From NCBI GenBank assembly GCA_031835245.2, contig JAVKOQ020000059.1, positions 124,001 to 188,000 on the forward strand: 64,000 nucleotides of DNA, given 5' to 3'. The notes beneath the pieces were generated by a model that made no database searches, was not told where the DNA came from, and saw only the letters and a list, made by a program, of their open reading frames with translations. Of this stretch, positions 2,687 through 46,800 are shown piece after piece. Every line of letters begins with the position of its first letter. The first letter of the stretch is position 1. A program made the position numbers and the translations under genes. The stretch comes from Balamuthia mandrillaris (taxonomy: Eukaryota).

Positions 2687-2960
2687 CAGCGTTTCCATTC
2701 TACTTGATTGGAGGCCATGATAAACAAGCGTATTATTCAACGGAGGAACACGGGAACAAAGGTGTCCAGAGAGAAGTGTGTGGTGCGCTATAACGATAAA
2801 AGGCATGATGACGAAGTGGCATTCTCTCACTCCCGATTGGCTCAATATAACCTACCAATATAGCCGGATCACGCCATTACCCCGCGAGGGACAACCATTT
2901 AAAGCTCGGAAGACTTTCATTTATCCACCTTTATTTCACAAATAGAAGGAAAGCAAAAAG

Positions 2961-3886
2961 ATGGAAGCTCACAAACATGAAGACGGAGAGGAACAAGAAG
3001 AAGAAGAAGTGGTCGACTTGCGGGGCTTTGCTGCAAGGTCGCATACGCTTGCCAATCGGTTGAAAGACCTGGGCGTCGACTCGCTGATCGGCGATAGAAA
3101 ACGTAACCTCAAGACCCACCGAAACGTATTTGTTGGTTCGTGCTCCTTCCCTTCTTTCTTTCTTCTTTTTCCATCAGCTTCGCTCCTTCTCATTCTCTCT
3201 TTCGCGTCAAAAAAAACAAGGCAAAGAGTTCGTGGACTGGTTGATAGAGAAAGGAGAAGCAAAGACAAGAGAGGAAGCCGTTACCATGGGGCAAGACCTC
3301 ATCAACTGCGGTTACGTGCACCACGTTTCCGACTCTCACGGCTTCAAAGACGACAATCTCTTTTATCGCTTTCGAGTAATGTTCTTTCTCGTCGTTCCTT
3401 GGTTCTTCACTTCTTTCTAAGTTTAGTAACAACCAAACCAAACCAACAAACGTACAGCAAGGCGAAGCCAAAAAGACAAAGATCAAACAAGAGAAACGTA
3501 TCTTCAAGAACAAGAAAGGCGTTGCCATCGGCGGTTACGACTGCGTGGCCTACTTTGAGCAAGGACGAGCTCTCAAGGGCACGCCCCAGCTCTCCGAACG
3601 GTGGAGCGATGCCGAGTGGTGGTTCCACAGCGACAGCAACAGGGAGCTCTTTCGCAAGGATCCGGCCCGATACGCCCCACAGTACGGCGGGTACTGCGCC
3701 TTCGCCGTTGCCAACGGCTCCACGGCTGCCACCTCCCCGGAGGCATGGAAAGTGGTGGAAGGGAAGCTCTATCTCAACTACAACAAGGTGGTCAGAGCCC
3801 TGTGGAACAAAGCAGAGGATGCTGTGGTGAGAGGAGATCAACACTGGAGAACCATGGTTGGTGAGGGTGCTGGTGGGTGTAAGTAA
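2961..3886 (+). CDS. DEP domain + bacterial-type YHS-domain fusion protein (exons 2961-3135, 3221-3375, 3458-3886)
   Basis: DEP: IGDRKRNLKTHRNVFVGKEFVDWLIE...TREEAVTMGQDLINCGYVHHVSDSHGFKDDNLFYRF. YHS family: AIGGYDCVAYF...WWFHSDSNRELFRKDPARYAPQYGGYCAFAV...WKVVEGKLYLNYN. Both introns are GT-AG with matching phases. Confidence 0.82.
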
Positions 3887-4254: not shown

Positions 4255-4322
4255 CTCAGCTCTTGCCCTGTTCCTCTCTTTTGGAGAAGGAAATAGCTTT
4301 CAGGGAAATACAAAAGCTTCAT
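4255..4322 (-). promoter_or_regulatory. Eukaryotic type II SECIS element in the 3' UTR of the PRXL2/SelU-like gene
   Basis: Minus strand reads AUGAA-GCUUUUG-uauuu-CCCUG-AAA-gcuau-UUCCUUCUC-caaaa-GAGAGGAA-CAGGG-CAAGAGC-UGAG. It has the UGAA/UGAG core, a 12-bp helix II (7+5 bp around a 5-nt bulge), unpaired AAA and an apical mini-helix, about 90 nt after the stop codon. Confidence 0.8.
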
Positions 4323-4411
4323 TGCTCTTTCTCTCTTCTTTCTTTTTTTGCGTTGGTTCATTGCTTTCCTGCTTCGTTTTCCCTATTCTTCTTTCTCGTT
4401 CTCGTTTTTGT

Positions 4412-5548
4412 TTACAAAGCAGCCGCTTCTTTTTGTTGTTCTTGTCGTCTGGGAAAGTGCTGTTTGACGGATTGCATCAGCTGGTCGAGGTCCGCATGCT
4501 CCCCAAAGCCTTGTTGATGGTGTTGAAAGACCAACTCGCCGCTCTGGCAGTCCACTACAAAGGTGCCGCCCAGTTGCCTAAACAAAAACGAATGTACATT
4601 CACTAAGGACAAGGGAGAAGCAGAAGAAGAAACAGAGAAGAACAAGAAGAACAACAAGACGAACAAGAAGGAAAAGAAGAACAAGGGCCAGAAGCACAAT
4701 AAGAAGAAACACGTTACCAGCCATCGCCAGCAAGGTCACCCTTAAAGCCCTTTCCATCGGCCCGTGAAGCAGCCGACCAAAAGGAAGGACGAAGCAGGCC
4801 AAGAACGGAACTTCTGCTTGCCTGTTTTGTTTTGTTTTTGAGTGAATGAGAGAGAGCGAGAGCAGAGAGAGCAGAGAGAGCAGAGAGCAGAGAGCAGAGA
4901 GCAGAGAGCAGAGAGCAGAGAGCAGAGAGAGAGAGCAGAGAGCAGAGAGCAGAGAGCAGAGAGCAGAGAGCAGAGAGCAGAGGAGCAGAGAGCAGAGAGC
5001 AGAGCAGAGAGCAGAGAGCAGAGAGCAGAGAGCAGAGAGCAGAGAGCAGAGAGCAGAGAGCAGAGAGCAGAGAGGGACCACCGTACCCCGAATGCCTGGT
5101 ACAATTGACGACGCGTGTCGAGGAGGAGGTGGTCCCCCTTCCAGTAGCCACCCGCCAGGAACTCCTCCACACCCAGGAGCTCATGACCGATGCCCACGAG
5201 GGCCACGTCGCGCGCGCGCAGCTCCTCGCCGAGGGAGGAAGAGAGCTCGTGAGCCCCCTCCCTAGTGAGAGGTCAGCCGAAGCGGCGGAGGAGGTGGACG
5301 GCGAGGCCGGCACGCCCGCCCGCGCAAAGGCTGCCCAAAGGGACCGCCTCTGCCTCCGCAGCAAGGTGGGAGCCCTGAAGGGTTCGCAAAGGGATGCTGG
5401 CGGCTTCCTTCCAGAACGTATTATTATGCTTCATCGTGGTGGTGGCGGTGGGGGTAGCGCTGTTCATGGGTGAAGAAAAATTGGTTGCAGCGAGTAGAAC
5501 TGCGAGGAGCAGGCAGAGAAGAGCAGCGACGGAGGCAAGAGCTCGCAT
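4412..5548 (-). CDS. Peroxiredoxin-like 2 (PRXL2B/FAM213B, SelU family) selenoprotein with signal peptide; Sec codon UGA at 5275-5273; exons 5548-5087, 4821-4718, 4577-4412 (about 243 aa)
   Basis: Reading through TGA gives HLLRRFG-U-PLTREGAHELS...VALVGIGHELLGVEEFLAGGYWKG...LLLDTRRQLYQAFG...GFKGDLAGDGWQLGGTFVV...GELVFQHHQQGFGEHAD. This aligns with FAM213B motifs (LRRFGCxxCR, VRLVGVGPEALGLQEFLDG, GNLSGDLLQSGG). Intron phases match and a SECIS lies downstream. Confidence 0.85.
4850..5074 (+). repeat. (CAGAGAG)n heptamer microsatellite filling intron 1 of the selenoprotein gene
   Basis: Tandem GCAGAGA units seen directly, inside the GT-AG intron 5086-4822 on the minus strand. Confidence 0.95.
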
Positions 5549-31987: not shown

Positions 31988-32569
31988 ACGTCATCGATCG
32001 TAGATCATCTTTTCCCTCGCCCATTGTGCTTGATCCTCTTTCCTCATCGATCTCTCACGGATGGGGTTGCTTTACGACTAAACTCCTCCCCACTCTGGAA
32101 AAGCTATTGAGAGGTTCACACGCAGAAAAGTGAAGGACTTTTCCCCACCTTTTACAAACTCATTTCTATATTTTTTTTTCTTACTTTCCTTTCTGCTGCT
32201 AGTGTAAACAAGGAACCCCTTCATACAGTACTTGTCTTTCACTCAAACCTTTCATACGAGAGAGATGGAGAGAATGAGTCAACCGAACAAACAAGAATAT
32301 GAAAAGAAATGGTTTTATGGGTAGGGATGTGTAAGCAAATGCCGACGGATACTTGGCACTGTTTTAAGAGGTTGAAACGCAGCAACCCAAAGCGCCCGTC
32401 TCCCTCACTCAGGAACCCATGCAGGATGCTCGTGACTCCGCCATGGCGGGCGGCATATTTCTAGAAAGAAACAGAGGAGACAAAGCATCAGGCCATGGTC
32501 CACCAATAGGCGAATTCTAAAATCTCCAACTTATGCGCATTGGAGGAAGGAACTCCCCGAAGCAGCGCC

Positions 32570-32576
32570 TATAAAA
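32570..32576 (+). promoter_or_regulatory. Putative TATA box upstream of the SDR gene
   Basis: TATAAAA about 50 bp before ATG 32627, with CCAAT near 32503. Confidence 0.5.
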
Positions 32577-32626
32577 CCACAAAAAAGTTCAATCCCACAC
32601 AAACATTACCAACAAACAACGCAAGG

Positions 32627-33493
32627 ATGGAAGACTCGCAGGCATACAAGGTGGTGGTAATAACAGGGGCCAGCCAGGGCATAGGCCTGACACTCGCCCA
32701 ACAGCTGGCCGCCAGCAACCACCACCAAGCGGAGCAGCAGCCCAAGTACAAGCTGGTGCTGGCCGCTCGCTCACGGGAGGCCCTGGAGGAGGCGGCCAAC
32801 GCTCTCAACGAACAGGTCGCCGACAAGAGCTTTGCGCCCGTGGCCGTGGCCGTGCAGGCCGACGTCAGCAAGCGGGAGGACCACAAGCGGTTGCTCCAGA
32901 GCGCCATCGATGCCTTTGGCAGGGTGGACGTCTGGGTCAACAACGCCGGTCGCGGGATCACCAAGCCGGTGCTGGAGCTCACGGACGAGGACTTTGACGA
33001 CATGATGCTGGTCAACTGCAAGTCGGTGCTCTACGGCATGCAAACAGTGGTGCCCTACTTCAAGCAACAAGGCCGCGGGCACCTCATCAACGTATCCTCC
33101 GTGCTGGGCCGCCTGCCCTTCGCCTCCATCCGCTCCGCCTACAGCGCCGCCAAGCACGCCGTCAACTCCCTCACCTGCACCATGCGGATGGACCTCCTGA
33201 GGGAGGGCTTCCAGGACATCCACGTCACCCTGTTCTCCCCAGGCGCCGTGGCCACGGACTTTGGGCTCAACGCCCTGCACGGCGGGCCGGACAACCGGCA
33301 GCTGCCTGGGGCGCAGCCCGTGGAGGAGGTGGCGGAGGCCCTGGTCGATGCCATCCGCCGCCCCCGCGCCGATGTCTACTCCAGAGAGGCCTACCGCACC
33401 GCCGTGGCGGCCTATTACTCTGCCGAGAGGGTGGAGGAGATCGAGGCCAAGCACGCCGCCAGTCCTGTGCCCATCCTTTCCACCGCAAAGTAA
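32627..33493 (+). CDS. Short-chain dehydrogenase/reductase, intronless
   Basis: TGASQGIG, VDVWVNNAG, INVSSVLG, catalytic YSAAK, FSPGAVATDF. Confidence 0.93.
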   Translation: MEDSQAYKVVVITGASQGIGLTLAQQLAASNHHQAEQQPKYKLVLAARSREALEEAANALNEQVADKSFAPVAVAVQADVSKREDHKRLLQSAIDAFGRVDVWVNNAGRGITKPVLELTDEDFDDMMLVNCKSVLYGMQTVVPYFKQQGRGHLINVSSVLGRLPFASIRSAYSAAKHAVNSLTCTMRMDLLREGFQDIHVTLFSPGAVATDFGLNALHGGPDNRQLPGAQPVEEVAEALVDAIRRPRADVYSREAYRTAVAAYYSAERVEEIEAKHAASPVPILSTAK

Positions 33494-37884: not shown

Positions 37885-40800
37885 TTAAGAAGAGAAACAG
37901 GATGGCTCAAGGTCCACGTTCCAAACGGTGAGGGCGGCACCGCGTTGGTACCAATAGGAAGCAGGCAGAGAAGTGGGCATGCGCAGATAAATGGAGAAGA
38001 GCAGGTCCAAACGAGTGGGATTGAGATATACCGGCAACTCCACCTTGTTCTTGTGAAGAACGGCTAAGTCCACCGTCCCTTGTTGTGGTTGGGTCTCTCC
38101 GCGAGGAGGCACGTGCACCCACGTGAAACGCACGTCTGGCATGTTGGTGAACAGGTCTCTCGTGACGGCCAACTGACCTTTCATCCAGGAAGCTCCTTCA
38201 ATGCTGAGTCCATGCACTATGAAGCTGGTGCTGTCCGAAATGACTTGCTGCTCTCCCTCCTGTGATCCATCGAGCACGTCCACATGGAGGGCAAGGTTCT
38301 CTACGGACCAACCGTGAGCACGAGCGGCTGCCTGACGAGTGGCTGTGATGAAGGCCTCGGGGAAGAACAGACCGCCCACCCAGATGGTCAGTTGCTGTTT
38401 GTTGCGTTGGCGCAGGTGATGCAACTGCTTCATGCGGCGAGTGAGATCCACCAACCAAGCATTGACGCTAAGAGTCTCGGGTACGGCGTACATCCTCCAT
38501 TCTCGGGGGATGAGGCCTTTGAGCAGATCGCTCATGATGCTGCGCAAGTAGTTGGTTTGCTTGAGCTCGCCGCGGCATGTCAGTATGGTGTTCTGTAGAT
38601 CGCGACGTACTTTGACCACAAGACCAGCTCCCGCACTGAGCTCTCTTTGGAGGCAGCGAAGGACCGGATCATGTTCGCTGGCGCCGTAATCTTCTCCTCC
38701 TTGCTCCTTTTGCTTGCCCGGCATTTGAGCGAGTTGCTCAGGCAGCAGCAACAACCACTTCTCGGCGGTCTGACTGAGAGCTATCATCCAAGCGGGGAGA
38801 GCACCAGCTACCTCCTTCTCTTTATCTGGGGACTCAGACGAAGATGCGGCCTCATCCTCTTCAATGACTTGCATCTTCTGCAGCTTCTTGAGCATTTCCT
38901 TGCCCTTGTTGGCCAGCAACATCACCTCCGCGTTATCAGGCAGACCAAGCCATGCTGGTGTCTCGTTTTCAGGCATGCTTGCTTGCACCCACTTGATAAA
39001 GTCATCACGGCTTCGGCCATCGGGCACAGTTAGCACTTCGTCATTCTCAGCCGAAGAAGAACCGGCAGTAGAGGAAGCGAGGAGGGCATTGGTGAGCGGG
39101 AATTGAGCATCAAAGCTGTGCGGCGTGAAGAGGTGGTCGAGGAAGGAGTCAAGTAGGCGCTGATCGAAGGGATTATCTACGCGGCCGCCATACACGGTCT
39201 GGCCAAGCAGAGTGCGAAGGGCAACCCATGGGATACGCTCAGGCGGGATGTTGGAACGGCCTTGAGCACGCAAGTCCACCCAGTAGTCCACTGTGTCGAG
39301 CGCACAGCGCAAGTCTGACTCGTTGAACTCAAACATCTTGGACCAACCGAGTGGTGCATAGCGCAAGCGCTCTTGCACCACGGCATGGAACCACGCCAGC
39401 AGGAAGTAAAGGCGGACGCGTTCAACGGGCTGCCTCTCCATTCGGTCTGGCGTTATATTGGAGAAAGTATGCAGCAGGTTGGCGCGAATGCCTGGTGGAG
39501 GCTCGAATACGAACACATGCGCCTCTCGAAGGAGACTAGTTGGGAGACGAGGATGGATCTCTGAAGTAAGGAACAAGCGGAAGGTAGGCTTGGGTTCCAG
39601 GCTGTGAAGCTTCTTCTCCAGCTGTACCAGCCACTGCGGCGCCAAGTGGATGTTCTTGAGGAGGACCCAAGTACCCGACTTGGCGGCTGCCGCGATGGCT
39701 TTCTCCGCCAAATCGAAACCTTCTGCAGAGCCAAGAGCCAGTGACTTGCAGGCACGCTTCGTCTTGTTGACGAGCTCATCAACAAGATAGCTGGCATCAT
39801 GACCGGCGCTTGAGCACAGCAGCAAAGGTGAATCGCTGCTGCTTTCCTTCTCCACAACGTGCAGCAGGTCAAGGTCTGGAATGTGAAGGAACGCCTCTCC
39901 AAACACTTTAGCGGCGTATTGGGCAGCTCCAGCCCTTAGCCTGTCCGGTCTAAGTCCCTTCAACAATAGCAACCGCCTGAACAGAGCAATGACCTTCGAA
40001 GGAGAGGCTCCTGCGCCTTCTTGTTGAGCCTGTTCCCAGGAAGTCGGCACGTGGTGCTCCGCCGTTGGCGAGGTCAGGAAGTGCCTCCACTCTTCTTGGT
40101 TGCTGTTCATATGCTCTGCTATGCGAGCAAAGGACGGCAGCTTACGCAACTCAGAAATAAAGACTCGCTGTGGACCCGACAGGAAGTCCAGCCCCACAGT
40201 AGCTTCGTCGCTCTTTGCGGTGCCGCCAACGTTGTGGGTGCCTTTCAACAAAAAGTCAAACTCGGTGGGATTCGCTTGGTCCGGCGAGTCTTTGAGGCGG
40301 ATCTGAGTCAACCGCAGGGCAAACGTGAGCTGATCCTCATGAAGGAGACCTCTGGCCACGCGTTGGAATACCAGCTGGAACACATCGTGCATCAGCACGG
40401 AGAGGCGCTGAATGTGATCGGTCAGGCCGTCCAGGTGGTCGTTGCGCAGAAGAATGTCGTGGAAGATTCGCAAGAAGAAGTTCAACGAGAATTGATATAG
40501 GAAGTGTACGGAGGCGGTCTGCTCCAGAGCAAAATATATACCAGAACAGGCCACAGCCATTGGCACGTACTCCTCGCTGACAGTGCTGATCTCCTGCATA
40601 ACAACCTCGGTTTGAGCCATCTTGGCGGCAACGGAGGCAGCTTCGTTCTTCAAGGATTCCAACGTGCTAATGACGTGGTCATCTTCCAAAATGTTGTTGC
40701 CCTGAGAGGCATTCAAAGCATCCAACAAGGATTTCTCGAGGTTGCGCAAGCGCACCTTGAACTCGCCCTGCAGCTTGAGCAGGTCCACTCTCTTCTTGTG

Positions 40801-43800
40801 GACGTCGGGGCGCTCTGATTTGAGCACAGAGTGAAGGCACTGGCTCTGGAGGCTGCTAGGTGTCACAGTAAAGTTCACAAAGGTGACACGGCTGCAAAGA
40901 TCGGGAGTGAAGTGGGAGGTGGGATCTCTTGTAGACAAGAAGATGACAAACGAGGGAGAAAAGTCGACGTCTTGGTCGCCAAGCCTTATCAGCACGCGTC
41001 CACCGGTCTTACGAATCTCCTTGTTGAGGACTGGATTGAGAACGGGATCAATGCTTTCCACGTCTTCAACCAACAAGGGTGTGCCGAAACGAAGCGCGCT
41101 CTCCAAGTTCTTCATGAAAGAGGCATCGAGGAAGCTGGTCTTCTTGATCTTGAGGTCGGCGTACTGTTTCATCAAGAACTCGGCAGCCTGGCCCGATGGA
41201 TCGATAACCAACGGGTACCTATTGAAGCGGTGCAACATAATGGCGTTCTCCAAGCAGAGATCATCGGCAGGCAAGGCGTTGTTTTGCCAGGAGAGGCGCT
41301 CGTCGGGTGTAGAGAGGTACTCGATGACAGAGATATCTTCCTTGAAGGCTACGCCAACAGCCTGCAGGTGAGCTTTCCATTGGTTTTGAAGGGTAGTACG
41401 GTAGTGCTGATCAAAGAAGCCAATGTAGGCTAGGAAGGCAGCGCTGATGAAAGAGTCGCCTACAATGGTGGCCATGTGGGCCTTGAAGGTCTCACTGCTG
41501 CTCTCCCAACGATCCTTCTCCGAGTTGAGATTGTAGAGGAGGGCGGTGGATCTCTCTACCTTGGTCTTGACCGTCGCCATCTCGGCCTTGATGGCCTGAG
41601 TCTCGCTGATGAGCATGGCGTATTCGTCCTTGTAGCGGTTGATGCTAGCCTCAAGGTTGGCGATTGTGTTCTCCATCTCTTGCTGCTTGTCCTTTAGCTC
41701 GCCGGCGGCATCTTCTAGGCTTTGCACTTCTTGGCGAAGAGGCTCCACCTTGCCCAGAATGTCGGAGTAGGACACTTGGGCGATGATCCAGGCGGCGAGA
41801 GGGCCACAGGCTTTGCTGGCGTGATTTATCGTCTCAAAGTTGAACTCGGGGTCGCTGAGATACTCCTTCTTTAAGAGGGTACGCAGTTTGGCAGAAATAG
41901 TGTTGGTGTCGAACGACACGATGTTAGAGATGAAGGACTTGTCGACGATCATACGACGAATGCCATCCCAGGTTTGCTTCTGGTGGGTGATGAGAAGGCC
42001 AACAGCCTCCAGGGTCTTTTTGATCTTTTCAGGAGGTCTTCCCAGCACACGGATTTCCTCCAAGTGTTTTCGTTTGATGCCGGACACACTCTTCTTGGCG
42101 GCTTCGACGGCGGGCTCTGCTTTGCTAAGATCCTCGTAGGCCTTATCTTTCTTGATTTGAATCTCCTGCTCTTGCTTTTCCAACTTAAGGCGCAGCTCCT
42201 GAGCAGCTTGTCGCTGTTGCTCTGCTTCTTGCTGGTCTTTAACCATCTGCTGCAGCTTCTCATTGGCCTCAGCCTGCTTTTCCTCCAAGACCTGACTCTT
42301 CACGCGGAGACTTTGCTGCATTTCCTTGACAGCTTGTTCTGTGTCTCTAAGCTTTTGCAAGCCCACATTGACGTGAAGCTGCTGCTCTTCTAGCTCTTCC
42401 CTCTTTTCGTTGATGAGGCGCACAAAGTGGGCGATGAAATCAAGGTAATGACGAGGGGTGACATAGTTGGATCTGCCTTGTTGTCTAGAGAGCTGCCAGT
42501 TGGCGTCGTTAATGGTGTTGTGGACGTAGACGAGGGCGCTGATAACAGCATCGCGATGGGATGGATGAGTAGGATTAGACAAAGGAAGGTTGGTCTCTGG
42601 GAAGAAGTCAGGAGGTTGATAGGTAGGATCATCCAGATCCACGTTCTTAGTGAACTCGGAGCCCACTTGGAACAAAGCTGCATCGGACCACTCTCCGAAC
42701 CAGTCCAACACACAACGGTTGAACAAGGCAGGAGAAGTGGCAGCTCGGTTGTGGAAGTCGGGACTGGCAGGGTTCATCGTGAACACAATGTGAAGATTGT
42801 TACGGACCTGCAAGGTGAACCACTTGTACATCTCTTCCTCTGTGTCCAAAATAAGACCACGGTTCTGGACAGCTTCCTTGCATTGATGCATGAGTGTAGT
42901 ATATTCATCACCCTCAAAGAGACCGGGCACTTCACCGCTGGCCAGCAGCGTGTTCATCCTCTCCAGGAAGCTGGATTCCAGCACGTTGGACTCGTCGAAA
43001 ATGAAGCATATTTTCTCGTCAGCACAGCCCGCTCGCTTCATGACAGTTCGAAGATCGTTGTCGAAGTCTTCGGGGCTGTAGCGGTTGTTGACCTTGATGG
43101 TGAAGATGCTGAGTCCGTTCATCCACGCCACGAAGCGGGAGAGCACAGTCTTACCACCACCGCTCACACCAATAAGTAGAGCGTGTCCCTGTGGTTGACG
43201 GAACACTCGATCGATACGGAGAATGTGGTCCAACACTTCGTCAAAGATAACCAAGGGTACATCCAGCTCCTCCTCGTAGAATACCTTCAGCCTGGCCTTG
43301 ACGTAATCACGGAGCTCAGCTCGTTCCACACGTACGTACTCTTTAGAGAGCCAGTTACTGAAGAGTATGGGCCTGGCCAACGCCTTCTCATCGAGGTTGG
43401 GGAAGTGCTTCATGACGATGGCGTCAATAGTCTTGTCGGTCCATTGAGCTTCTTCTCGAGTGACCAGCCTATCCTGGAAGAGCCGCAGCCCTTCATGCAC
43501 CCACAAGCGCATGAGCTCTTCCAGAGCGATACCTTCTCTTGCCTTGATGGCTGTGTAGAGGGCACGCAACCAGCGAGACAGTTCTCTGGGACTGTAGATG
43601 TAATGGGCGTGCATATCTGGCGTGAACCGCTTCTGGGAGGTCAAATAGAACTCCACCATAGCTTCCGTGAGAGAAGCCGCCTGCGAGCGCAGAGGCGGTT
43701 GCAGCTTCATCAACGAGCGGTAGAAGGTGCCATAGATCTGAATCAACGAGGACTCGGAGGGGAAATCAACGAGCAATAGGGGCACATGTCGCAGGAACCT

Positions 43801-46800
43801 GTGGGACAAGGGCACACGGCCTGCGTCTGTGGGAGGGTTGCATGCTCCCACGAACTGGATCCTCTCCAGGGTGATCCACTCGTGGTCTTTGTTGCCATCC
43901 GTGTTGATCTTCCAGTAGCCACCCTGCTCTGTCAGCTGTCGCATAAACGTGATGACGCGTTGGGTGCCATACGTGTCGTTGGCAGGAAGGTTGACCTCAT
44001 CGCAAAACACGACCAGCCACTTGCCAACCTGCACAGGCTGCAGGACGGTTCCCTTGGGCGTATGCTTCAGCTCGCAGTGCTGCTCAAAGGTTTGCAGCAG
44101 GAGCTCTGGCGTTGTGGCGCTGGAAAAGTTGAGCGACACCATTTCAAAGTCGGGCAAGGATTTGAGGGTGCTATCTAGGGTCATGGTTTTACCGCTGCCT
44201 GGTGGGCCGCACAAGACGAGGGGTCTGTGCTCTGCCAACCAGGATCGAAGCACTTCGGTATGACGCACGGTATCCACAGTGGGAATGACCACATCCGGTG
44301 AGGCCACCATGTGAGTCTCCACTTCGACGGTTGGCACCAAAGTGCTCCACAGGTGCCAATCTCCGTCTTCCAGAGATACCCAGTAGTCCAGCAGGGAGGG
44401 ACCAGAGGGGTCTGGCATTGGCGTTGTGGCCAGGCTCATCACATGCTTGCCAAAGGCCTCCCTATCGGAAAGACCCATGCTGCCGCCCAATCCCCACATC
44501 AGGGCATAATACAACCGGTTCGTCATATATCTCTCCAGCCGGTCCATCGGCAAGTGGAAGTCCGGGTGCTCCTGGTTGTATTGCAGTATGTTGTAGATGC
44601 CTCTGTTGATGAGAGAGAACGATGACAGCAGCGTGCGCAAGCGAGTAAAGTCCATAATGTGGGTCTGTTTTTGGGCATAGGCCATACACTTGTCCACAAG
44701 GTTACCGTTCTCGAAGAAGGGTTCCAGGATCTTGGCCACATCTCGTTGAAGGAGCAAGCCAGAAGGAGCTTCTACTTTGCCCTCGTCCAACAAAGGCTCT
44801 TGCAGCGTGGAAGAGGAACCACCAGCGGTCGGTCTTTGCTTAGTGGCGGCGGTGACCCTACGGAACGACTCACGCTCCACTTCGTCGAGGGGCTCCCACT
44901 GAAGCCGGAGCAGGTAGTTAGTGTAGATCATCTGCGTGGTCAGCGTCTCCTCCGAGAACCAAACCATGCCACAGCGACTGACAGTGGCTGGGGTTGCATA
45001 GCGAAGGTCCTGTACTTCGAACATGACCCGCACGTTGTCGGGCAGAGCCAGACGCTCGCCGTTGGGAAGGGTCAGCAGCTTGTTGTCATCCAGTAAACTG
45101 TTCAAATTTTCAACCCATTCAGGGTCCACATCACCGTCGAAGACGAACCAGTGTCGCTTATTGCTCTCTCCTCGCACATTATCTACTATCTTACGAAGCA
45201 AGCCCGTAAACAGACCATCCGTCCATTCTCTGGTGGTGGCATCCAAAGAGCCAAAGAGCTGCTCCTTGGTGATAGCTTTGGGATCCAACACGTAGGCCTC
45301 GGCCTTGATGCCCTCGCACCTCTCCAAAGCTTCAAGCAGCACGCGCCATGCTGAGCTCTTGCCGCTGCCGGAAGGTCCTACCATCATAACACCATGTCTT
45401 AGTATTTGGATCTGGTAAAGTTGCAACAGCTTCGCTTCCCACTCTGGGCTGACCACGAGGAAACGTTCCTTGCAAATCTCTGCGATTTTGGCTCGCAGCT
45501 CGTCCAAACTTATTGGGTTGGGCACTGAATTGGGGAATACGTCAGACAGTAGCGCCTGGAACAATGGAACATCACCGGCCACCAGCTTTGGAATGACGTT
45601 CTCACAGATGCTTCGCAACAGGATCTCTTGTTCAAAGGTTGTCCACTCTGACTCGCTTTCCTTTGGCTTCTCTTCTTCCCCTTCCGTTATGGTGTAAGTC
45701 TTTCGCTTGATGTTACCAGCGCTCACCAACACGCTCTTCAGAGCTCGCAATCCAAAGTCGTAGTGGCTTTGGGTGGATAGTTGCTCGCGGCAGAGGTTGA
45801 ACAGTGGTACCACTTTGCTTGCTAAGCGCTCCGCCGTCTTGAAGCCTTGTGAATAAAGCATCACCTGAGAAAGAGAGGCTGGTCAGGACCTTGATTTCTT
45901 TTTGCCTAGACTAGAGCAAGCATACCTGAGCAATCAACTCTCTGTCCGGTTGAATCATAGCAACGCCACGGAAGAGTTGCTTAAGATTGTCCGGCAAATT
46001 AGAGCGTCCCGCATAACCTGGATTCATTGTCACGAAGATACCCTAAATAAAATTTGAGAAACAAGTTCATCACAATAAGATAACAGTTTTCACAGTGATT
46101 GAGGAGGATGTGTGTACCATGACGGGGTTGATTTTGACGGATTTGCCGATGATCTCCACTTCTTTGGCCTTCTCCTTGAGTGCCACTTGAATGCCCTGGA
46201 TCTGCTGAGAGACAGCAGAGAGCATCCGCTCTTCCAGACGATTGAATTCGTCAAAGCATCCCCACGCACCACATTGACAAAGTCCAACAAAGATACGGCC
46301 CATGGCTTGGAAGTCAAAGTTTTCATCACAACAAAATACCAAAACAAATCGACCAAGTTGAGTACCCAACGCCTTAACTGTTTCTGTTTTGCCGGTACCG
46401 GCAGGACCGAAAGGACTGCCACCCAGACGAGCTTCCAGGGCTTGCGTTAGGGTCAAGTAGCAACGATCCGTCAATGGGGTCTGCACAAGTCGTTCGGCCA
46501 CGCCCAAGTACTCGAATCCATAAGTGAATGAGGCATTGGCCATTCGCACGGTCAATCTTTTCAGAAGCGAGTCCTTGCTAGGGTTCCAATAAAATCTCAT
46601 TTCTTGGAGCCACATAAAGTCAGCGGCACTGCTTATTTTGTGCTTGATCAACTATATTAACGTGGACCAAAACAAGTGTCAGATAAGATAGTGTCAAACA
46701 AAAGCGAGCATGACTTCGAAACTAAAATACCTTTCGGATGACATCTCGTTGATGAACGCATTCAGTGATAAGGTGTTCGTGTTTTACACGCTTAGTTGGG

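What the first reader, a model, noticed from the sequence alone, without database searches (positions are those of the whole stretch)
2961..3886. DEP domain fused to a bacterial-type YHS-domain protein
Seen: two in-phase introns join a eukaryotic DEP membrane-targeting/signalling domain to a complete YHS-family module (AIGGYDCVAYF...YAPQYGGYCAFAV...VEGKLYL) encoded in one GC-richer exon. The usual GYDP motif is GYDC, adding a second Cys. Established: this YHS family is mainly bacterial, usually signal-peptide bearing, and some members are annotated as (seleno)proteins. Inference: a horizontally acquired metal/redox module rewired to cytosolic signalling. It lies tail-to-tail with the Sec redoxin, which may be coincidence.
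Basis: partly seen in the sequence, partly recalled or inferred. Interest (0 to 1): 0.7.

Follow-up and report, generated by a model that had tools for sequence, protein, structure and literature searches.

The report
Amoeba membrane-anchor fused to thiol domain
A spliced, transcribed gene of the amoeba Balamuthia joins a eukaryotic DEP signalling domain to a bacterial-type reactive-cysteine (YHS selenoprotein family) domain that lacks the usual export signal, so it likely does thiol chemistry at the inner face of cell membranes; the fusion is real, but its function is inferred and its donor unresolved.

Summary
The fusion is real. Three exons (2961-3135, 3221-3375, 3458-3886) give a 252-aa protein identical to an NCBI Balamuthia mandrillaris record. 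One transcript contig spans both introns, and 4 raw RNA reads from another study cross 3375/3458. Residues 43-109 are a DEP domain like those of P-Rex1 and DEPTOR. Residues 132-241 are a full NF041384 YHS (seleno)protein domain, up to 59% identical to bacterial proteins. The key residue is Cys190: invariant in 119 of 119 homologs and a TGA codon in 3 of 80 bacterial loci. The GYDC cysteine sits at a variable column and occurs in 2 of 119 homologs. The exon's GC content is within the native range. Trees cannot separate a bacterial donor from a clade shared with giant-virus copies. No second DEP+YHS protein was found, but eukaryote coverage was weak. One new lead: Cys139 and a family-unique His167 lie beside and on the vestigial YHS/TRASH metal site. 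Verdict: an apparently undescribed, probably lineage-restricted domain fusion of moderate interest.

The parts
2961..3135 (+). Exon 1 (CDS): acidic N-terminal tail (aa 1-20), helix, start of the DEP domain
   Evidence: transcript contig starts at 2938
3136..3220 (+). Intron 1, 85 nt, GT..AG, phase 1, inside the DEP domain
   Evidence: absent from the X1 contig (table 8)
3221..3375 (+). Exon 2: rest of the DEP domain (DEP = aa 43-109, nt 3087-3372 spliced)
   Evidence: Pfam PF00610; P-Rex1 and DEPTOR matches
3376..3457 (+). Intron 2, 82 nt, GT..AG, phase 0, at the DEP/YHS boundary
   Evidence: joint 3375/3458 in X1 contig and 4 X4 reads
3458..3520 (+). Basic linker (aa 110-131 hold 10 K/R, 2 D/E) in place of the family's signal peptide
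3521..3850 (+). NF041384 YHS (seleno)protein domain, aa 132-241
   Evidence: AlphaFold2 mean pLDDT 86.9 for exon 3
3542..3544 (+). Cys139 (GYDC), at the variable Pro position of the D-P-V-C knuckle
3626..3628 (+). His167, at the third metal-ligand position of canonical YHS/TRASH domains; in 0 of 119 and 0 of 82 homologs
3695..3697 (+). Cys190 (GGYC), invariant; the selenocysteine position of bacterial members
   Evidence: PMC13188914 table row (motif GxU)
3851..3886 (+). Low-confidence C-terminal tail ending in Gly-Gly-Cys-Lys and TAA; no RNA cover beyond 3834
4412..5467 (-). Neighbour, tail to tail: AhpC/TSA-like (PF13911) gene, exons 5087-5467, 4718-4821, 4412-4577, in-frame TGA at 5273-5275; not part of the fusion
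4255..4322 (-). SECIS-like hairpin (AUGA...UGAG core, AAA at the loop) in the neighbour's 3' UTR
   Evidence: no Rfam SECIS hit; folding z only -1.1

Best explanation
This is one spliced gene in which a DEP domain and a basic linker stand where the bacterial YHS selenoprotein family has its export signal, so the protein is likely cytosolic, is predicted to dock on acidic membranes or a membrane partner through DEP, and would use its invariant Cys190 as a reactive thiol there. Shown: the single transcript, both domains, the missing signal peptide, 45 of 49 strongly conserved family columns kept, and Cys190 at the Sec/Cys position. Inferred: membrane docking (by analogy with DEPTOR and P-Rex1 DEP domains), thiol-redox chemistry (from Sec/Cys exchange; no member has been assayed in the papers I saw), and origin by capture of an intronless bacterial-type gene as the last exon of a native DEP gene. 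My odds: fusion real 0.97; bacterial-type module captured in the amoeba's lineage about 0.6; Cys190 thiol chemistry at membranes about 0.5. Cys139 is most likely a tolerated substitution.
For: Transcript and junction. Domains. No hydrophobic N-terminus against 113 of 119 homologs. Cys190 in 119 of 119; in-frame TGA at that codon with a downstream hairpin in 3 of 80 bacterial loci; motif GxU for NF041384 (PMC13188914, table row). Cys190 lies just before a helix in the model, a position that favours a reactive thiolate (general knowledge). 45 of 49 columns conserved in 80% or more of homologs are kept despite a long branch, which points to selection on the family function. Linker with 10 K/R in 22 aa; DEPTOR DEP domains bind phosphatidic acid through basic patches (PMC8439649, passages). 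Whole YHS module in one exon behind a phase-0 intron. Identity 52-59% to four top bacterial-type hits against 29-33% to six giant-virus-type copies.
Against: No biochemical function for NF041384 in the papers found. Bacterial neighbours give no recurring redox partner: MsrB, a redoxin and a GPx motif each in 1 of 77 loci; mixed families among 81 and 46 neighbours. The DEP domain has net charge zero overall and the N-terminal tail is acidic, so lipid binding is not assured. Trees do not fix a bacterial donor. The DEP half of the full-length model is partly low confidence. Read depth is low, about 1-4 in X4.
Confidence: 0.5

Rival explanations
1. The YHS module is a cytosolic metal (Cu/Zn) sensor: Asp138, Cys139 and His167 rebuild a site where canonical YHS/TRASH domains bind metal, and binding controls the DEP domain, as the YHS domain controls the M. 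phlei adenylyl cyclase.
For: Alignment to a canonical D-P-V-C...F-C-S-x-x-C YHS domain maps the four ligand positions to D138, A141, H167, N171 (ligand spacing from PMC4626032). H167 is in 0 of 119 and 0 of 82 homologs; 0 of 119 homologs have two Cys/His among positions 139/141/167/171.
Against: Only 1 of the 4 canonical ligands is kept exactly. Cys139 is at the Pro position, not a ligand position. The protein has 9 family-rare residues, and two Cys/His among 9 is expected about 8% of the time at the observed 24 of 465 rate (binomial by hand, post hoc). No coordinates were available to test the geometry.
Confidence: 0.17
2. The YHS module is a non-catalytic interaction or scaffold domain, like the YHS-type repeats of ciliary adenylate kinase 9, and DEP simply localises it.
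For: The only clear structural match is mouse AK9 (9d2f_A, Z 8.0, rmsd 2.2 A, 65 residues), also found by profile (E 5.4e-10).
Against: AK9 repeats are distant (14% identity in the structural alignment) and cover only half the module. Cys190 is invariant and exchanges with Sec, which usually marks a catalytic thiol.
Confidence: 0.15
3. Origin rival (compatible with any mechanism above): the module came not straight from a bacterium but from an older eukaryote or giant-virus pool of this family.
For: 8 of 9 viral loci hold a divergent, hydrophobic-leader, Cys-rich member; both tested pass the NF041384 cut-off. A Balamuthia + giant-virus clade has the best likelihood and is not rejected (p-AU 0.97; 0.63). 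Two unchecked earlier notes report secreted Sec forms in other protists.
Against: Only 29-33% identity to the viral copies against 52-59% to bacterial ones. Both branches are long, so attraction is likely. Free searches placed it among bacteria, near an Acidobacteriota-rich group, at SH-aLRT 90-91, unstarred.
Confidence: 0.35
4. Artefact: two separate genes, a chimeric assembly or bacterial contamination.
For: The cluster has one member on one contig; read support is thin.
Against: Spliced contig across all three exons and junction reads from a second study with a different allele; a contig from a third study runs from intron 2 into the YHS exon (X3, 3442-3668); codon usage is native-like.
Confidence: 0.02

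Closest known systems
NCBIfam NF041384 YHS domain-containing (seleno)protein (first listed from Olavius algarvensis symbionts, PMC1976440)
   Same: Full-length match (model 2-112 of 113, 142 bits); invariant GGYC cysteine at the Sec position; 45 of 49 conserved columns kept.
   Different: Eukaryotic, spliced, no signal peptide, fused to DEP; Cys (TGC) not Sec; rare Cys139 and unique His167.
DEP domains of P-Rex1/P-Rex2, DEPTOR, GPR155/LYCHOS and Epac (PF00610)
   Same: About half of aligned residues identical to P-Rex1 DEP1 (E 1.7e-18 to 6vsk_A); basic loop and basic downstream linker.
   Different: Single DEP, no GEF, GAP, PDZ or receptor domain; the partner is a bacterial-type thiol module.
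Canonical YHS/TRASH copper-sensor domain (M. phlei class IIIc adenylyl cyclase, PMC4626032)
   Same: Same fold family fused to a signalling domain in a cytosolic protein; Asp at ligand position 1.
   Different: The three ligand cysteines are Ala141, His167 and Asn171 here; Pfam YHS scores 19.7 bits, under the 30.3 cut-off.
YHS-type repeats of ciliary adenylate kinase 9 (PDB 9d2f_A)
   Same: Structural match over the first half of the module (Z 8.0); shows the fold already exists in cytosolic eukaryotic proteins.
   Different: Remote (14% identity); part of a large axonemal protein; its GYCP cysteine aligns with Asp138, not Cys139.

Membership tests
NF041384 YHS (seleno)protein | Score over the curated cut-off across the whole model | tested here: met
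   142.4 bits against 70; model 2-112/113
NF041384 YHS (seleno)protein | Cys or Sec in the GxU/GxC motif | tested here: met
   Cys190 (TGC); aligned TGA in 3 of 80 loci
NF041384 YHS (seleno)protein | N-terminal export signal (typical of members, not part of the model) | tested here: not met
   Hydropathy maximum 1.13 in the first 45 aa; 113 of 119 homologs reach 2.0 or more (crude measure, no SignalP)
Selenoprotein (this gene itself) | In-frame UGA plus own SECIS | tested here: not met
   No in-frame TGA; stop is TAA. The SECIS-like hairpin nearby is on the other strand
DEP domain (PF00610) | Score over the gathering cut-off across the model | tested here: met
   87.6 bits against 32.7; model 4-72/72; PDB matches
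DEP domain (PF00610) | Membrane or partner binding | not testable with these tools
   Inferred from basic segments and DEPTOR passages
Canonical metal-binding YHS/TRASH (PF04945) | Pfam gathering score | tested here: not met
   19.7 bits against 30.3
Canonical metal-binding YHS/TRASH (PF04945) | Asp/Cys-x-x-Cys ... Cys-x-x-x-Cys ligand set | tested here: not met
   D138, A141, H167, N171, mapped with one canonical sequence (L100)
Horizontally acquired bacterial gene | Nested in a bacterial clade with alternatives rejected | tested here: inconclusive
   No topology rejected; careful search unfinished
Horizontally acquired bacterial gene | Foreign base or codon composition | tested here: not met
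   GC3 0.737 against native 0.662 +/- 0.085; 5 of 39 native windows at 0.74 or more; codon adaptation within the native range
Horizontally acquired bacterial gene | Absence from related amoebozoans | not testable with these tools
   No eukaryote genome set held; word-seeded searches too insensitive

The most novel reading that the evidence does not exclude
Balamuthia turned an exported bacterial Sec/Cys protein into a cytosolic, membrane-tethered sensor: it swapped the signal peptide for a DEP domain and re-evolved a metal site (Asp138, Cys139, His167) on the vestigial TRASH knuckle next to the catalytic Cys190, coupling copper or redox state to DEP signalling at the phagosome or plasma membrane.
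Probability: 0.15. Interest if true: 0.68.

Novelty: new variant of a known kind. Interest (0 to 1): 0.42.

Why it matters
NF041384 is a predicted selenoprotein family with no assayed function in the papers I found. A soluble, signal-less, Cys-form member tied to a well-understood localisation domain is a handy entry point for finding what the conserved thiol does. It is also a clean example of a bacterial-type exported protein re-addressed to the cytosol by becoming the last exon of a eukaryotic signalling gene. As it stands it is one lineage's domain shuffle with no phenotype, so its weight is moderate.

Tried and rejected
GYDC as a special second cysteine: variable column, 2 of 119 bacterial homologs also have it. 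GC content as a sign of transfer: within the native range. A conserved bacterial operon as a clue to function: none recurring among 81 adjacent co-oriented ORFs and 46 of 55 second neighbours (9 left out to shorten the call, by no rule). Other DEP+YHS proteins: none among 3 hits of 250-2000 aa or the best 120 of 803 hits (683 unseen). The DEP-region search returned only the query among 5 candidates and is too insensitive to count. Of 6 metagenome loci found with the DEP exon, 2 are convincing DEP genes and none has a YHS match. ESM Atlas gave no usable whole-protein feature hit and bacterial clusters for the YHS part. Sequence search of the PDB with exon 3 alone: no hit. Foldseek of the full model against viral structures: nothing at E 0.001. 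hhalign did not detect an internal repeat between the two halves of the module, so I do not claim one. Rfam found no SECIS for the neighbour. Literature: no paper holds YHS + DEP domain + amoeba; YHS is absent from the main text of two Balamuthia papers and from the one supplement file held for PMC10471605; larger annotation tables not seen could list it. Run search: no holder on record as RNA was listed; the raw-read lays supplied the evidence.

Full report
Gene structure. The + strand carries three exons, 2961-3135, 3221-3375 and 3458-3886, with GT..AG introns of 85 and 82 nt; joined, they give 252 aa. Neither intron length is a multiple of three, so splicing is required. The product is identical to NCBI KAL6068796.1, 'YHS domain-containing protein [Balamuthia mandrillaris]', a one-member cluster. 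No whole genome is held for the window; the window has one copy.

Expression. A 736-nt contig of run X1 lies on 2938-3134, 3220-3375 and 3458-3834 with no mismatch and lacks both introns. X1 is only guessed to be RNA, but a contig without both introns is a spliced product. In RNA run X4 (another study, about 3 in 100 of the run read), 4 reads from 2 start places cross 3375/3458; runs X5 and X6 listed none. A contig of run X3 runs from intron 2 into the YHS exon (3442-3668), so the junction also exists as unspliced sequence in a third study. The three listed differences in the coding part are two silent changes and T152A. Depth is low. Bases 3835-3886 are not covered, and GT donors at 3861 and 3879 leave the last few residues open.

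Domains. Pfam DEP covers aa 43-109 at 87.6 bits. The best solved relatives are P-Rex1, DEPTOR, P-Rex2, GPR155 and Epac. NCBIfam NF041384 covers aa 132-241 at 142 bits; Pfam YHS itself stays under its cut-off. Intron 1 lies inside DEP; intron 2 is phase 0 and sits one residue after DEP, so the whole YHS module is one terminal exon. Residues 110-131 hold 10 K/R. 113 of 119 homologs have a hydrophobic N-terminal stretch; this protein has none anywhere. AlphaFold2 folds exon 3 confidently (mean pLDDT 86.9). The full-length model has pTM 0.55 with a partly weak DEP half, which had no homologs in its alignment.

Which cysteine matters. Cys190 (GGYC) is present in 119 of 119 homologs. In 3 of 80 bacterial genome loci (two deltaproteobacterial MAGs, one Nitrospiraceae) the same codon is an in-frame TGA followed by a hairpin, in line with the GxU motif listed for NF041384 (PMC13188914, one table row seen) and the family's first listing (PMC1976440, section 12 read). 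Cys139 (GYDC) is at a variable column: P68, A28, V11, T9, C2, S1 and 0 of 82 rows from the genome loci. So it is rare but not unique. The protein keeps 45 of 49 columns that are at least 80% conserved, on an end branch of 0.86 against a median of 0.23.

A possible metal site. Canonical YHS domains are proposed to bind metal with Asp-x-x-Cys and Cys-x-x-x-Cys (PMC4626032, part 1 of 4 and passages read). Against one canonical domain (L100) these positions are D138, A141, H167 and N171 here. The family normally has Ala/Ser at 167; His occurs in 0 of 119 and 0 of 82. No homolog of 119 has two Cys/His among 139/141/167/171. I keep it as a lead at about 0.15.

Fold. The model's one clear match among 48,161 solved chains is 9d2f_A (Z 8.0, rmsd 2.2 A, 65 residues), named adenylate kinase 9 in the profile search (E 5.4e-10). 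The fold is thus not foreign to eukaryotes, but AK9 is remote.

Origin. Identity to four top hits is 52-59%. Base composition gives no support: GC3 of the YHS core is 0.737 against 0.662 +/- 0.085 for 39 windows of other genes here, and codon adaptation is within their range. The viral scan gave 9 loci; 8 encode a divergent Cys-rich member with a hydrophobic leader, 5 of them on contigs named as giant-virus MAGs, 29-33% identical to the amoeba domain (6 compared). Quick trees of 125 and 67 rows put Balamuthia near an Acidobacteriota-rich group at SH-aLRT 90-91, unstarred. Against that, a tree holding it with the viral copies scored 54 log-likelihood units higher than the quick free tree (p-AU 0.97), and with LG+G4 on 44 of the 67 rows none of three topologies was rejected (p-AU 0.50, 0.63, 0.23). 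The careful search did not finish. With 129 columns and two long branches the donor is unresolved. Two unchecked earlier notes of this scan report secreted Sec forms in other protists, which lowers the surprise of finding the family in a eukaryote.

Spread of the fusion. No second DEP+YHS protein appeared. These searches are weak for eukaryotes: the DEP-region search returned only the query although the PDB search finds many DEP domains, and 683 of 803 YHS hits were not shown. No paper holds YHS, DEP domain and amoeba together; YHS is not in the main text of PMC10471605 or PMC8569187 (passage searches).

Neighbour. The tail-to-tail gene is a spliced AhpC/TSA-like gene (PF13911, 30.5 bits) with an in-frame TGA at 5273-5275 and a SECIS-like hairpin at 4255-4322 on its own strand; Rfam does not score it. 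The fusion gene has no TGA. Bacterial YHS genes show no fixed redox partner. I treat the adjacency as chance; synteny in other amoebae could not be tested.

Mechanism and verdict. Most likely a native DEP gene captured an intronless bacterial-type NF041384 gene as its last exon, replacing the export signal. DEP and the basic linker would bring the module to acidic membranes, as DEPTOR's DEP domains bind phosphatidic acid (PMC8439649, passages), and Cys190 would act as the reactive thiol. The gene, transcript, domains and residue mapping are shown; localisation, chemistry and donor are inferred. Novelty: new variant of a known kind. Interest 0.42.

Noticed in passing
L088-L095 (e.g. L094:3839-4432): Viral contigs, five named as giant-virus MAGs, encode a divergent Cys-rich member of the NF041384 YHS (seleno)protein family with a hydrophobic leader; two tested pass the family cut-off.
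   Followed up: partly
window 4255-5467 (-): Spliced AhpC/TSA-like gene with an in-frame TGA in a G-U-P-L-T context and a SECIS-like 3' UTR hairpin: a likely amoebozoan selenoprotein. Strains differ by a small insertion near 4281 inside that hairpin.
   Followed up: partly
PDB 9d2f_A / 9fqr_Xf: Ciliary adenylate kinase 9 carries up to five YHS-type repeats that match the NF041384 profile; two trypanosomatid axoneme chains give weak structural matches (Z about 3).
   Followed up: no
L017, L019, L046: Three bacterial MAG loci with in-frame TGA at the family's conserved Cys and near-identical downstream hairpins.
   Followed up: partly
L030, L076: Verrucomicrobial YHS genes lie beside acyltransferase, VTT/DedA and TANGO2 genes, as in an earlier unchecked note on an aminolipid operon.
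   Followed up: no
window 3861-3884: Two unused-looking donor motifs near the stop; the annotated Cys-bearing C-terminal tail has no RNA support.
   Followed up: partly
window 32510-33490 (+): Intron-free short-chain dehydrogenase ORF with unusually high GC3 (0.88); a possible other bacterial-type gene or a highly expressed one.
   Followed up: no
window 37888-45882 (-): A single 2665-codon open frame, by its sequence a dynein heavy chain (recalled, not scanned), in a gene that is otherwise rich in short introns.
   Followed up: no
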